Of a stretch of 64,000 nucleotides of DNA, positions 36,001 through 39,000 are shown piece by piece. Made by a program: the position numbers. The stretch lies in assembly GCF_030013205.1 (NCBI RefSeq), contig NZ_CP122648.1; one strand, written 5' to 3'. The first letter of the stretch is position 1, and the number at the start of each line of letters is the position of its first letter. The stretch is from Escherichia coli. Its GTDB lineage: Bacteria > Pseudomonadota > Gammaproteobacteria > Enterobacterales > Enterobacteriaceae.

Positions 36001-39000
36001 AAGAAGAAAATTACCCTGGAGCCACAGTTTCTGGGCGACAAACACATCATACCGAATGAACGAACTATCAATAATCTGGTGATCGTCGAAGTAAAGCCTG
36101 AATTTCAGAGCGAATTTAGAAACATCGTCCTTCCTGAAATGGTCGAGTCGCTCAAAGTAGAGAAAGGCGTGTTAGCCATGTATGCCGGTACAGATTCAGA
36201 GACTCCAAAACGCTGGTATTTCTATGAGATTTACGCCAGTGAGGAGGATTATCAACTGCACCGACAAACGCTGCACTTCCTGGATTACCTCAGGCAAACG
36301 GCGCATATGAGCGCCAGGAAGGACGCAATCCCGGTAAAACCGGTATTTCTTCGTAACAAAGGCGGAATCAAACAGGAGCCGCAACGTTGACCAGTAAGGA
36401 TTAACATGAAAAGCGTACTTGCAGCAGCGGCTATGTCGCTTGTTATTTCTGATTTTGCCAATGCTGAGGAAACAAGAGGTAAAGCTATGATGAAAATAGA
36501 ACCGTCAGCGATTTCGGAAGCTGATATTCGTTCCGTCTCACCGGCTCTCGCGCGCTTTGGTCGCGAAGCTATTACTGAAGATCTGTGGACACGCGACGCC
36601 CTCTCACCGAGGGATCGTAGTGTGGTGACCGTCGCCATGCTGATTGCCCGCAACCAGCCTGCCGAGCTTAAGCACTATATTGACGTCGCTCTCGATAGCG
36701 GCGTGACGCCAGCGGAATTATCAGAAATCATTACCCATCTGGCGTTCTACTCAGGTTGGCCAAATGCAATGTCAGCCGTCAGCGTGATCAAAGCAGTATT
36801 TGAAACTCGTGGCGTCACGGCAGATGCACTTCCTGAAGCTTCTCCGGACCTGCTTCCTCTCAATCAGGAAGCAGAAAAGCAGCGTTCAGAGACAGTGGAA
36901 AAAAATGTTGGCCCAATATCTCCAGGCCTGGTTAAATTCACTGCTGATCCACTCTTCCTGGATCTCTGGCAAAGACCCGCGCTGAAACCCCGCGACAGAA
37001 GCCTGATTACGGTCAGCGCCTTAATCGCATCCGGACAGAGCGCGCAGATTGGCTATCACCTCAATAGAGCAATGGATAATGGACTTTCGGTGAGATCGTT
37101 ACCCAGGCCGCCTTCTATGCTGGCTGGCCAAACGCATTTACCGCTGCTCCGGTTGTGGGAGAGGTGCTAAACAATCGATCATCGAGTAAAAGGTAACATT
37201 ACTGAACACTAAAACCTGACGCACATCACAAAATTAGAACGATCAGTTCATGAACCAACAGACGTGACATCGAGTGATTTATGGACAGCGTTTAACACAG
37301 TTATGAACCAAAACTGAGTTCATAACTGTGAGTTTGAATCGTCATTTGATTAATATCCATTTAAAACAGTTTGTTATGCTGTTTCTGGTGCTGAAGTCAA
37401 TTATGTATATCCCTCAAACCCAGAATAGTTAAATGGAATTTGAGTGATGCGAAGCGATTTTACGGTCGTCGTTATTACTTCAGGGTTCCAGAACATAAAG
37501 CCTCTCCTCTTTCATGATTGGCCTGTGCATACCTGATATAGGCTGGCTGGTATGCAGGTTTGCCGTTTGCCGCATCTTCCCTGCGTTGAAGAGTCAGGCT
37601 GGCAAACCGCGTGCAAATGAACACCCCCTCTTTCCATCAACAATTCAGACAGCTTGCGGGAATGAGTCCACTCCGGTATCAGAAATGGCTACGCCTCAAT
37701 GAAGCCAGGCGACTGATGCTGAATGAACATTACGATGTCACCACTGCAGCCTATGCTGTCGGTTACGAAAGCTTATCCCATTTCAGTCGGGAATATTCGC
37801 GGATGTTTGGAGAGTCACCTAAGAGAGATATTACCAGGTTAAGAAAGTCTGTCGGTCAGCTTTAATAAACCCTGCACTTATCTGTTTAGAGCAATTCCGT
37901 GTTAGTTACACCAGGCAAACATTAACCATAGCTAATGTTTTATAGCCATATAAACCATTGGCCGCTCTTGACCTTTCCTGACACTTCCCTTGTTCGCAAT
38001 AATATTCTGTTTAGTCGCTGTTTATAAATAACATGCATAATGAAATCGTAATGTTATTTAGCGACATAAAATGTCTTTGCAAATACTCTCTACAACAAGT
38101 GCTGCAATAAACTTGTTGTGATTAGGTGTCCTTGTAATTTAAAGATATTATCGTTCTTCGTGAAATGTAATAACCCTGGAACTATATTCTCAGGGCAATA
38201 TCCCATCAAGAATGATTCTTGTTTTATAAGCAATAACAGAATGACTTAATTGTTAACTTTCTTTATTCAGCTACTTAAATATAAATTTTGGAGAATTATG
38301 AAACTCAAACATGTCGGTATGATTGTCGTTTCTGTGTTGGCGATGTCGTCTGCTGCGGTAAGCGCAGCCGAGGGTGATGAATCAGTAACGACCACTGTTA
38401 ATGGCGGTGTTATTCATTTTAAAGGTGAAGTGGTAAATGCCGCTTGTGCGATTGATTCAGAATCAATGAACCAAACGGTTGAGCTGGGTCAGGTCCGTTC
38501 TTCTCGTCTGGCTAAAGCGGGTGACCTCAGCTCCGCCGTTGGCTTCAATATCAAGCTGAATGATTGTGATACCAATGTTTCCAGTAATGCAGCTGTTGCA
38601 TTCCTGGGTACTACTGTCACCAGTAATGACGACACATTAGCGCTTCAGAGTTCAGCGGCAGGCTCTGCCCAAAATGTCGGTATTCAAATTTTGGACCGTA
38701 CGGGTGAGGTATTAATACTTGATGGTGCCACTTTTAGTGCTAAAACTGACTTGATTGATGGCACGAATATATTGCCGTTCCAGGCTAGATATATTGCTCT
38801 CGGGCAGTCAGTAGCTGGTACTGCAAACGCTGATGCGACCTTCAAAGTTCAATATCTATAATTCAATCTTAAGGTGGCTATACGTCATCTGAAATTGAAA
38901 CAGGGTGTGTGTGGCATGGCTACGCACACCCGAGCAATTCACCAATGTTCATCTCATTATTAATGAGGAATAGTTTGTGTTTTGGAGCGGTATGAAAAAA

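What the first reader, a model, noticed from the sequence alone, without database searches (positions are those of the whole stretch)
37240..37330. Cluster of GTTCATGAAC-type palindromes in the noncoding gap after the islet
A perfect palindrome gttcatgaac lies at 37246-37255. Further on, a perfect 12-bp inverted repeat acagttatgaac / gttcataactgt (37297-37308 and 37318-37329) flanks a 9-nt spacer. No U-tract follows on either strand, so this is not a standard terminator. It could be a regulator operator, a recombination site or the islet boundary.
Basis: seen in the sequence. Interest (0 to 1): 0.4.

Follow-up and report, generated by a model that had tools for sequence, protein, structure and literature searches.

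The report
Relic recombination arm of a GInt island
The palindromes are conserved copies of a short DNA motif in the terminal 250 bp of a mobile genomic island (a GInt that has lost its recombinase genes); they are most likely docking sites for the island's recombination proteins, so this is an ordinary relic of a known kind of element with one detail not yet described.

Summary
GTTCATGAAC lies at 37246-37255, and a perfect inverted repeat (13 bp, not 12) lies at 37296-37308/37318-37330 with a 9-nt spacer.

The repeats are not in a gap after the islet. They lie inside the islet's own AT-rich 249-bp right end (37186-37434). The true boundary is the 7-bp direct repeat GTTAAAT (29674-29680 and 37428-37434). 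K-12-like genomes carry it once at that position.

[quoted passage not shown] It sits in the published hipA/ydeT defence-island hotspot.

The same right-end module, always stopping at ...CCCAGAATAGTTAAA, ends unrelated cargo in E. coli chromosomes, enterobacterial plasmids and metagenomes, next to at least 31 different flanks.

Among 23 distinct modules, the 9-bp cores GTTATGAAC-N9-GTTCATAAC and the terminus are nearly invariant. There are no compensatory changes, so the constraint is on sequence, not on pairing.

The same motif (NTTCATR) recurs at fixed positions in otherwise unalignable left ends, including three direct copies upstream of ginA.

Best reading: distal arm-type binding sites for Gin proteins, orphaned in this genome. 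This is a new member of a known kind, of modest interest.

The parts
29674..29680 (+). Left copy of the 7-bp direct repeat GTTAAAT (attL core; probable 6-bp crossover region GTTAAA).
   Evidence: Alignments with empty sites in K-12-like LTE0 and FDAARGOS_1285. Gin-bearing elements in P393-F10 and STB20-1 are inserted at the same point.
29681..29746 (+). Remnant of a type A GInt left end (66 bp). It holds the 13-bp core-type arm TATGGTGGGTTTG (29680-29692) and one motif copy, GTTCATG, at 29700-29706.
   Evidence: About 90% identical to the DNA between hipA and ginA in STB20-1, and to the left end of the complete plasmid GInt of p22Q34-1.
29681..37434 (+). The 7.75-kb islet, a GInt derivative without gin genes. 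Its cargo runs from a LysR pseudogene (minus strand) to a CMD pseudogene.
   Evidence: Annotation of the identical K_EC180 locus. tblastn of GinA-D against the window finds nothing better than E = 0.6. Both ends are homologous to GInt ends.
37186..37434 (+). Conserved AT-rich 3'-end module (attR arm): 249 bp, 35% G+C.
   Evidence: Conserved at 71-76% identity behind unrelated cargo in E. coli, Klebsiella, Raoultella and Chimaeribacter, and always ending at CCCAGAATAGTTAAA. G+C content.
37246..37255 (.). Palindrome GTTCATGAAC, the distal motif copy. Its conserved part is TCATGAAC(C/T/A)AA.
   Evidence: TTCATGAAC sits at -188 to -190 from the terminus in the metagenome right ends. In A6 the right half is nearly invariant and the left half varies.
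37296..37308 (+). Left arm of the inverted repeat, CACAGTTATGAAC. The conserved core is GTTATGAAC at 37300-37308.
   Evidence: The core is invariant in 5 of 5 diverged modules and almost invariant in 23 of 23.
37318..37330 (+). Right arm of the inverted repeat, GTTCATAACTGTG. The conserved core is GTTCATAAC at 37318-37326.
   Evidence: The spacer is 9 nt in 22 of the 23 aligned modules and 10 nt in L054.
37401..37407 (+). Core-proximal motif copy TTATGTA, 20 nt before GTTAAA. It roughly mirrors GTTCATG, which lies 20 nt after the left GTTAAAT.
   Evidence: TTATG and the A after it were fixed by the search pattern, so their invariance in A6 is not independent evidence; they are invariant in the five independently collected modules. 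C-type right ends carry TTATGAAC at the same distance.
37415..37427 (+). Core-type arm CAAACCCAGAATA. Joined to the left end it gives CAAACCCAGAATA-GTTAAA-TATGGTGGGTTTG, an 11/13 imperfect inverted repeat around a 6-bp spacer.
   Evidence: Read directly from the sequences printed. The same holds for the complete plasmid element in L044.
37428..37434 (+). Right copy of GTTAAAT (attR core), the true islet boundary.

Best explanation
The palindromes belong to the 249-bp AT-rich right-end arm (37186-37434) of a GInt-type integrative island. This island has lost its ginABCD recombinase operon but keeps both termini.

The motif, consensus about (A/T)GTTCAT(A/G)A, is the same sequence as TYATGAAC read on the opposite strand. 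It occurs at several places:
- once about 20 nt inside each end, in inverted orientation around the 6-bp crossover sequence GTTAAA;
- as two more direct copies upstream of ginA in intact relatives;

I infer that these are binding sites for one or more element-encoded recombination proteins (GinA/B/C/D). They would organise the attL x attR or attI x attB synapse much as arm-type sites do in phage lambda attP.

In this genome no gin genes are present, so the sites are orphaned relics.

Shown: the location, the boundaries, homology to GInt ends, conservation at sequence level, and recurrence of the motif at fixed positions. Inferred: that proteins bind, which protein binds, and what the binding does.
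For: Boundaries. A single GTTAAAT sits at the empty site in K-12-like and FDAARGOS_1285 genomes, and a copy flanks each side of the islet here.

Same site used by gin-bearing elements. P393-F10 has hipA-GTTAAAT followed by genes of 466, 516, 788 and 144 aa. STB20-1 has the window's own left-end sequence followed by ginA/ginB homologues.

Gene identity in the relatives. The first two proteins carry tyrosine-recombinase domains and the third and fourth have no domain hit. Each matches only its collinear partner in the Sakai ECs_3512-3509 block, whose ginC/ginD are listed as GInt in Idola 2023, Additional file 10.

A complete element. Plasmid p22Q34-1 carries the type A left end, ginABCD, cargo and the module, about 32.8 kb in all.

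Fit with the published GInt structure: ginABCD, cargo, a 0.2-0.4 kb AT-rich 3' end, and 6-nt staggered cuts (PMC5385486). The module here is 249 bp at 35% G+C, against 50% for the islet.

Conservation. All right ends stop at CCCAGAATAGTTAAA next to 31 different flanks. In a metagenome scan anchored only on the terminal block, 18 of the 19 distinct right ends that had the full 260 nt upstream and were not cut by an IS carry GTTATGAAC-N9-GTTCATAAC at -135 to -137, and all 19 carry TTCATGAAC at -188 to -190; the one exception, L054, has the same arms around a 10-nt spacer. The 9-bp arm cores are 100% and 93% conserved, against 65% for the rest of the module.

Sequence-level constraint. 13 pairs were counted over 23 sequences. 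None has a change on both sides, and nearly all departures break pairing.

Motif in the left ends. [GC]TTCAT[GA] lies at offset 20-26 in at least five mutually unalignable left-end types. Three direct copies lie upstream of ginA in both type A and type B.
Against: - No binding experiment exists, and no Gin protein showed a recognisable arm-binding domain in Pfam or NCBIfam.
- A Salmonella diarizonae mini-element (L035) keeps the terminus and about 100 bp but lacks the palindromes. They are therefore not needed for the terminus to persist, though that element may be dead.
- The Raoultella module lacks the -188 palindrome and has one mismatch in the arm.
- Type B left ends do not form a good inverted repeat with the right terminus (6/13 by eye), so the symmetric core model is demonstrated only for type A.
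- The left-end copies lie in the ginA promoter region, so a transcriptional role is equally compatible with the data.
- GInt authors reported no common feature in Pseudomonas 3' ends, so the motif may be specific to the enterobacterial lineage.
Confidence: 0.6

Rival explanations
1. Operator sites for an element-encoded transcription factor that controls the gin promoter. Candidates are the small GinD helix-loop-helix protein or the 98-aa Xre-type HTH protein that accompanies several of these elements. In the excised circle the right-end module would lie directly upstream of ginA, so its sites could act together with the three left-end copies.
For: The left-end motif copies lie between the core and the ginA start, and one overlaps the start codon in type B. 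Palindromic or inverted sites suit dimeric HTH proteins. An HTH_3 protein of 98 aa is present in the P393-F10, PCP06021, pKpN01 and p22Q34-1 elements.
Against: No 98-aa HTH homologue was found in the window, the Chimaeribacter locus or the Raoultella locus. The promoter scan finds no sigma-70-like site in 37197-37434. The motif copies that sit symmetrically about 20 nt from the crossover site on both sides fit a recombination complex better than a promoter. The two roles are not mutually exclusive.
Confidence: 0.17
2. The inverted repeat acts as a nucleic-acid hairpin. It could be a U-less transcription terminator or RNA stabiliser for the cargo operon. Alternatively it could be a single-strand DNA hairpin used in a strand-specific copy-out step or as an oriT-like nick region for mobilisation.
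For: The predicted DNA hairpin is strong: -13.1 kcal/mol, z = -6.1. The related SE elements circularise with a strand bias (PMC10214605). GInts lack their own transfer genes and often sit on conjugative plasmids.
Against: There are no compensatory changes in 23 distinct sequences: nearly every departure breaks pairing, and the outer 4 bp decay. The loop is also partly conserved and has the same length in 22 of the 23 modules. There is no T-run. In most relatives the adjacent cargo gene is on the opposite strand and is a different gene, so it is not a terminator for one operon. There is no Rfam match. A hairpin does not explain the single-copy motifs at fixed positions in the left ends.
Confidence: 0.1
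3. There is no function at all. The repeats are chance features of an AT-rich relic that merely hitch-hike with the conserved terminus.
For: A 10-bp palindrome is not unusual by itself (about 62 expected per window), and GTTCATGAAC with up to 1 mismatch is not enriched. In this genome nothing encoded nearby could use the sites. A mini-element lacks them.
Against: The arm cores are 93-100% conserved where the surrounding module is 65% conserved. Their positions relative to the terminus are fixed to within 2 nt across 18 distinct metagenome right ends, most of them closely related to one another, that were selected without reference to them. The motif recurs in unalignable left ends.
Confidence: 0.05

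Closest known systems
[quoted passage not shown] 2017, PMC5385486), also called Tn6571-family transposon
   Same: Tripartite layout in the relatives: ginABCD, then cargo, then a short AT-rich 3' end of 0.2-0.4 kb. Site-specific insertion flanked by short direct repeats. A 6-nt crossover. Cargo of defence or metabolic genes. Already reported as a defence-island carrier in E. coli (PMC10121019).
   Different: The window copy has no gin genes and only 66 bp of the left end. The GInt authors reported that the 3' end is poorly conserved, with no common recognition feature. Here the enterobacterial 3' end is a well-conserved 249-bp module with a repeated motif shared with the left ends. The Gin proteins are only distantly related to the published Sakai block (22-28% identity over partial lengths).
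[quoted passage not shown] 2023, PMC10214605)
   Same: Four core genes at the left end. 13-19-bp imperfect inverted repeats around a 6-bp spacer in the joined ends; type A here gives 13-6-13 with 11/13 matching. Target-site specificity.
   Different: The gene order in the relatives is integrase, integrase, large non-catalytic protein, small protein. That is the GInt order, not intA-tfp-intB-srap. Strand bias and the absence of an empty site were not testable.
Arm-type sites of phage lambda attP (P1, P2, P'1-P'3) and accessory-protein sites
   Same: Several copies of one short motif are spread over about 200 bp of the arm distal to the integrase gene, with three copies in the arm next to it. 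All lie outside the core-type inverted repeats that flank the crossover. This comparison rests on my knowledge of lambda.
   Different: No homology, and no evidence of an arm-binding N-terminal domain in the Gin proteins. One motif copy lies only 20 nt from the crossover on each side. This is a resemblance in how it may work, not membership.
Tn554 (TnpA, TnpB, TnpC)
   Same: Multi-recombinase, site-specific, with a 6-bp core carried at the junctions and a small accessory protein comparable to GinD (as stated in PMC5385486 and PMC10214605).
   Different: Gram-positive hosts, no third large protein, and no sequence relationship tested here.
E. coli defence-island hotspot #20 (hipA/ydeT; Hochhauser et al. 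2023, S1 Table)
   Same: The same chromosomal interval. Defence-carrying GInts occupy it in P393-F10, PCP06021 and STB20-1.
   Different: The window islet carries redox/detoxification-type genes, not defence genes. That survey would therefore not have scored it as a defence island.

Membership tests
GInt | ginABCD operon at the 5' end (two catalytic tyrosine recombinases, a large non-catalytic recombinase-fold protein, a small protein) | tested here: not met
   tblastn of type B GinA-D against the 64-kb window gives nothing better than E = 0.6, and the annotation shows no integrase. The feature is met in relatives that share both ends.
GInt | Short (0.2-0.4 kb) AT-rich 3' end after the cargo | tested here: met
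   The module at 37186-37434 is 249 bp at 35% G+C, against 50% for the islet, and is conserved behind unrelated cargo.
GInt | Flanking short direct repeats (attL/attR) present once in the empty site | tested here: met
   GTTAAAT lies at 29674-29680 and 37428-37434, and occurs once at that position in LTE0 and FDAARGOS_1285. Only 7 bp are perfect, against the 10-11 nt imperfect repeats reported for Pseudomonas GInts.
GInt | Site-specific insertion shared with autonomous members | tested here: met
   P393-F10 and STB20-1 carry gin operons starting at the same GTTAAAT after hipA.
GInt | Excision as a circle that depends on all four gin genes | not testable with these tools
   This needs PCR for attI/attB with and without gin genes supplied in trans.
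SE (strand-biased circularizing integrative element) | Core gene order intA-tfp-intB-srap | tested here: not met
   In relatives with the same ends, proteins 1 and 2 carry Phage_integrase or NF041502 hits and protein 3 carries none. An SE-like order appears only in the Raoultella plasmid cluster, whose link to the module is unresolved.
SE (strand-biased circularizing integrative element) | Joined ends form imperfect inverted repeats around a 6-bp spacer | tested here: met
   CAAACCCAGAATA-GTTAAA-TATGGTGGGTTTG matches at 11 of 13 positions, for type A ends only (sequences).
Intrinsic (Rho-independent) terminator | G+C-rich stem followed by a T-run | tested here: not met
   The stem has 4 G-C pairs out of 13 and no T-run follows. 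The scan reports nothing at 37296-37340.
Structured RNA / conserved hairpin | Pairing kept through compensatory changes; match to a described family | tested here: not met
   None of the 13 pairs has a change on both sides in 23 sequences. The best Rfam hits are E = 4-10 and far below gathering scores.
Lambda-like arm-type site array (how it works, not homology) | Repeated motif in both arms, distinct from the core-type repeats, bound by the recombinase or accessory proteins | tested here: inconclusive
   The repeated motif and its fixed positions are shown. Binding was not testable, and no arm-binding domain was detected.

The most novel reading that the evidence does not exclude
The NTTCATR / TYATGAAC array could be the self-recognition signal of enterobacterial GInts, which the discoverers of GInts could not find. 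It would define both arms of attI.

Islands without gin genes that keep both termini would then be non-autonomous GInt derivatives that resident or plasmid-borne GInts can move in trans. This would explain the tandem arrays at the hipA site. Examples are this 7.75-kb islet, the tcu/PTS block in P393-F10 and the 0.88-kb Salmonella diarizonae mini-element.
Probability: 0.25. Interest if true: 0.55.

Novelty: new member of a known kind. Interest (0 to 1): 0.35.

Why it matters
GInts are a recently recognised vehicle for defence systems, resistance genes and virulence genes. How they recognise their own ends is unknown: the original description found no common feature in the 3' end.

A conserved motif array at fixed positions in both ends gives concrete, testable candidate binding sites for the four Gin proteins. 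It also gives a sequence signature (...TTATGTA-N20-GTTAAA plus the -135 inverted pair) for finding GInt right ends and decayed copies without gin genes, which gene-based searches miss.

For this genome the practical message is modest. The hipA-yneL islet is a fossil GInt, and the palindromes are part of its relic arm.

Tried and rejected
- Rfam scan of 36900-37900 at permissive E-values: only chance-level hits.
- Promoter/terminator scan: nothing in the gap.
- Motif copies elsewhere in the window: none beyond chance.
- Idea that the gap is a decayed N-terminal part of the yneL AraC gene: dropped. The gap is homologous to element ends that have unrelated right flanks.
- Idea that the chromosomal sequence left of attB is itself a degenerate module: local alignment scores do not exceed shuffles.
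- Genome-contig scan with the 19-nt terminus: 25 of 26 hits were chance matches in AT-rich genomes, and only Salmonella diarizonae was relevant.
- Looking up our GinC/GinD accessions in the published GInt list: not found in the stored (truncated) file. I substituted a BLASTP comparison with the listed Sakai block.
- Treating the Raoultella p23141-mcr element as a complete GInt: rejected. Its four-gene cluster has an SE-like domain order and no similarity to the Gin proteins used, and its left end shows no GTTAAA or motif.
- Covariation support for the hairpin: none.
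Full report
**1. The observation**

The sequence read confirms GTTCATGAAC at 37246-37255. It also confirms the inverted repeat, which is 13 nt, not 12: CACAGTTATGAAC at 37296-37308 and GTTCATAACTGTG at 37318-37330, with a 9-nt spacer. No T-run follows on either strand, and the terminator scan reports nothing there.

The inverted repeat is unusual. It is the only perfect repeat of 13 nt or more with separated arms in the window. As single-stranded DNA it folds at -13.1 kcal/mol, z = -6.1.

The 10-bp palindrome alone is not unusual. About 62 perfect 10-bp palindromes are expected per 64 kb by my arithmetic, and near-matches are not enriched. It matters because it shares ATGAACCAA with the left arm 53 bp downstream. 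In addition, 4 of the 7 window-wide TYATGAAC matches fall in 37246-37325.

**2. Context and true boundary**

The window is E. coli, 100% identical to strain K_EC180. The local gene order is as follows:
- hipB, hipA;
- a block running from a LysR pseudogene (minus strand) through hypothetical, DJ-1-type, aldo/keto reductase, amidohydrolase-fragment, NAD(P)H oxidoreductase, aldo/keto reductase and quinol monooxygenase genes, to a frameshifted carboxymuconolactone decarboxylase (CMD) gene that ends at 37196;
- a 400-bp unannotated stretch;
- the yneL AraC remnant (37599-37865);
- fimA.

I aligned this with a K-12-like genome (LTE0) and with FDAARGOS_1285. The inserted block begins right after ...ATAATGTATATTATGTTAAAT (GTTAAAT = 29674-29680) and ends with ...CAAACCCAGAATAGTTAAAT (GTTAAAT = 37428-37434). 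The empty sites carry GTTAAAT once at that position.

So the 'gap' to the left of 37434 belongs to the islet. The boundary lies 98 bp to the right of the inverted repeat.

**3. The gap is a conserved mobile-element end**

A sensitive search with 37197-37427 found full-length copies at about 73% identity in E. coli PCP06021 and a partial 76% match in P393-F10 that extends over the whole module on alignment, both behind different cargo. It also found 51 plasmid records from Klebsiella, Raoultella, Enterobacter, Serratia, Salmonella, Pantoea and Chimaeribacter.

The cargo to the left varies: Hachiman plus restriction genes, AVAST, CBASS, or a HEPN/Toprim protein. The DNA to the right is unrelated in each case. 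Every copy stops at exactly CCCAGAATAGTTAAA(T/C).

**4. The element is a GInt**

In P393-F10 the same GTTAAAT after hipA is followed by genes of 466, 516, 788 and 144 aa, then cargo, then the module. The first two proteins carry tyrosine-recombinase domains. The third and fourth have no domain hit.

Each protein matches only its collinear partner in the Sakai block ECs_3512-3509. The ginC and ginD of that block are listed as GInt genes in Additional file 10 of Idola et al. 2023.

This matches the published GInt layout: ginABCD, cargo, a 0.2-0.4 kb AT-rich 3' end, 6-nt staggered cuts, and short flanking repeats (PMC5385486). It does not match the intA-tfp-intB-srap order of SEs (PMC10214605).

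Hochhauser et al. list hipA/ydeT as defence-island hotspot #20, and name GInts as defence carriers in E. coli.

**5. The window islet is a GInt derivative without gin genes**

The first 66 bp of the islet (29681-29746) are about 90% identical to two other sequences. One is the DNA between hipA and ginA in STB20-1. The other is the left end of a complete 32.8-kb GInt on plasmid p22Q34-1, whose layout is left end, ginABCD (507/555/845/167 aa), mrk fimbriae, HTH, Hachiman, restriction genes, module.

tblastn of GinA-D against the whole window finds nothing.

Metagenome relatives carry the same LysR-to-CMD cargo at 86-97% protein identity but keep different amounts of the left end: about 95 bp in L066 and about 50 bp in L071. 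That is what independent or successive deletions of the gin region would produce.

About 460 complete E. coli genomes carry the islet with the same junctions.

**6. Anatomy of the ends**

Joining the type A ends gives CAAACCCAGAATA-GTTAAA-TATGGTGGGTTTG. This is a 13-6-13 imperfect inverted repeat with 11 of 13 positions matching, the usual form of a tyrosine-recombinase core site (sequences).

Marking NTTCAT[AG] and its complement on all ends shows the following:
- Type A left ends have direct copies at about +20, +104 and +138.
- Type B left ends have copies at +20, +116 and +156. The last overlaps the ginA start codon.
- Type C left ends have a copy at +20.
- Right-end modules have the palindrome at -188 and the inverted pair at -135/-117.
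- TTATGTA lies 20 nt before GTTAAA, roughly mirroring the left +20 copy.
- C-type right ends carry TTATGAAC at that same distance.

Among 31 distinct right flanks, about eleven are themselves left ends of neighbouring elements. They fall into at least five mutually unalignable types, and most carry [GC]TTCAT[GA] at offset 20-26.

**7. Conservation test without bias toward the palindromes**

I scanned metagenome contigs with a pattern taken only from the last 33 nt of the module. This returned 38 loci with 25 distinct right ends.

Of the 19 distinct right ends that had the full 260 nt upstream and were not cut by an IS, 18 have GTTATGAAC-N9-GTTCATAAC at -135 to -137, and all 19 have TTCATGAAC (at most one mismatch) at -188 to -190. 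The exception, L054, has the same two arms around a 10-nt spacer.

In five diverged modules (mean identity 73%), the arm cores are 100% and 93% conserved and the terminal 16 nt are 100% conserved. The rest of the module is 65% conserved.

In 23 distinct modules the 13 putative pairs are 94.6% paired. No pair has a change on both sides, nearly all departures are unpaired cells, and the outer 4 bp decay. The spacer is 9 nt in 22 of the 23 modules (10 nt in L054) and is partly conserved.

The constraint is therefore on the sequence of two inverted 9-mers at fixed spacing, not on base pairing.

**8. Interpretation**

The arrangement is comparable to arm-type sites of lambda attP. The binding partner would be one or more Gin proteins.

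That proteins bind, and which ones, is inferred. No arm-binding domain was detectable.

A role as operators of the gin promoter is compatible with the data and not exclusive. In the circle, the module would lie upstream of ginA.

Hairpin-based roles (terminator, single-strand intermediate, oriT-like site) are disfavoured. There is no covariation and no T-run, the adjacent genes differ between relatives and are often on the opposite strand, and the left ends carry single motif copies.

In this genome no partner is encoded, and the left arm keeps only one of three motif copies. The sites are most likely non-functional relics.

**9. Caveats**

- A 0.88-kb Salmonella diarizonae mini-element keeps both termini but lacks the palindromes.
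- The Raoultella module lacks the -188 copy, and its neighbouring four-gene cluster looks SE-like.
- Type B left ends do not form a clear inverted repeat with the right terminus.
- The similarity of these Gin proteins to a published GInt block is distant.

**10. Verdict**

The context is explained by a known kind of element in a known hotspot. What is new is limited to two things: a conserved motif array in enterobacterial GInt ends, and the recognition of derivatives without gin genes. Interest is modest.

Noticed in passing
L035 687-1569 (Salmonella enterica subsp. diarizonae CCUG 30040T): A mini-element of about 0.88 kb with a type A left end (over 200 bp, three motif copies) and the last 100 bp or so of the right-end module. 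It has no gin genes and only a 118-aa ORF on the minus strand. Its left flank is the same as in E. coli (GCGCATAATGTATATTATGTTAAAT). It could be a non-autonomous GInt derivative.
   Followed up: partly
L011/L043 (E. coli P393-F10), between hipA and yneL: A tandem array at one att site. A gin-bearing GInt with HEPN/Toprim cargo is followed, across a GTTAAAT junction, by a second block of about 16 kb without gin genes (tcuRABC, MFS, mannose/PTS genes, IS1). This block has a different right end (...TGTGCTCAACATAAGTTAAAT) that abuts the K-12-like flank. The same type C left end follows the GInt on plasmid p22Q34-1 (L044).
   Followed up: partly
L008 about 11935-12010 (Chimaeribacter arupi plasmid): Homology to the window extends about 70 bp to the left of the module, into what is the 3' end of the CMD gene in the window. 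Yet the adjacent cargo there is an AVAST system on the opposite strand. This suggests the cargo was replaced upstream of a retained module plus a CMD stub.
   Followed up: no
L014/L046 (Raoultella ornithinolytica p23141-mcr): The most divergent module sits after a CBASS operon. About 9 kb away is a four-gene cluster (476/585/675/173 aa) with an SE-like domain order (integrase, none, weak integrase, weak TetR_N). It shows no similarity to the Gin proteins used, and its upstream region lacks GTTAAA and the motif. Whether the two belong to one element is unresolved.
   Followed up: partly
window 37435-37660 versus L003 and L002: The DNA between the att site and the yneL remnant exists in at least three structural forms. 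K-12-like genomes have about 130 bp of unrelated sequence replacing window 37526-37655. Most E. coli genomes match the window only from 37656 onward.
   Followed up: no
L002 (FDAARGOS_1285) about 5720-5780: This strain lacks hipBA but keeps roughly the last 60 bp of hipA directly after the ECSE_1600 autotransporter gene. So hipBA was deleted there rather than never acquired.
   Followed up: no
window 29974-30871, 33244-33805, 36406-37196: Several cargo genes of the islet are decayed in this strain: the LysR regulator is frameshifted, the amidohydrolase is split into fragments, and the CMD gene is frameshifted (annotation). This fits an old, immobilised island.
   Followed up: no
L054 1-7217 (metagenome contig): A module is followed, directly after GTTAAAT, by a further left-end type (CATGTTGACTGTTAACTTACTTCATGAAC) and a complete ginABCD at 60-85% identity to type B. 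This is either a tandem array or a circular or permuted form captured in an assembly.
   Followed up: no
window 47286-47316 and 61630-61657: These are the only two other perfect inverted repeats with separated arms (12 nt each) in the window.
   Followed up: no
L015, L006/L016, L053, L080: Several right-end modules are cut about 50-60 bp from the terminus by what appear to be IS3-family insertions, which removes the palindromes but leaves the terminal block.
   Followed up: no
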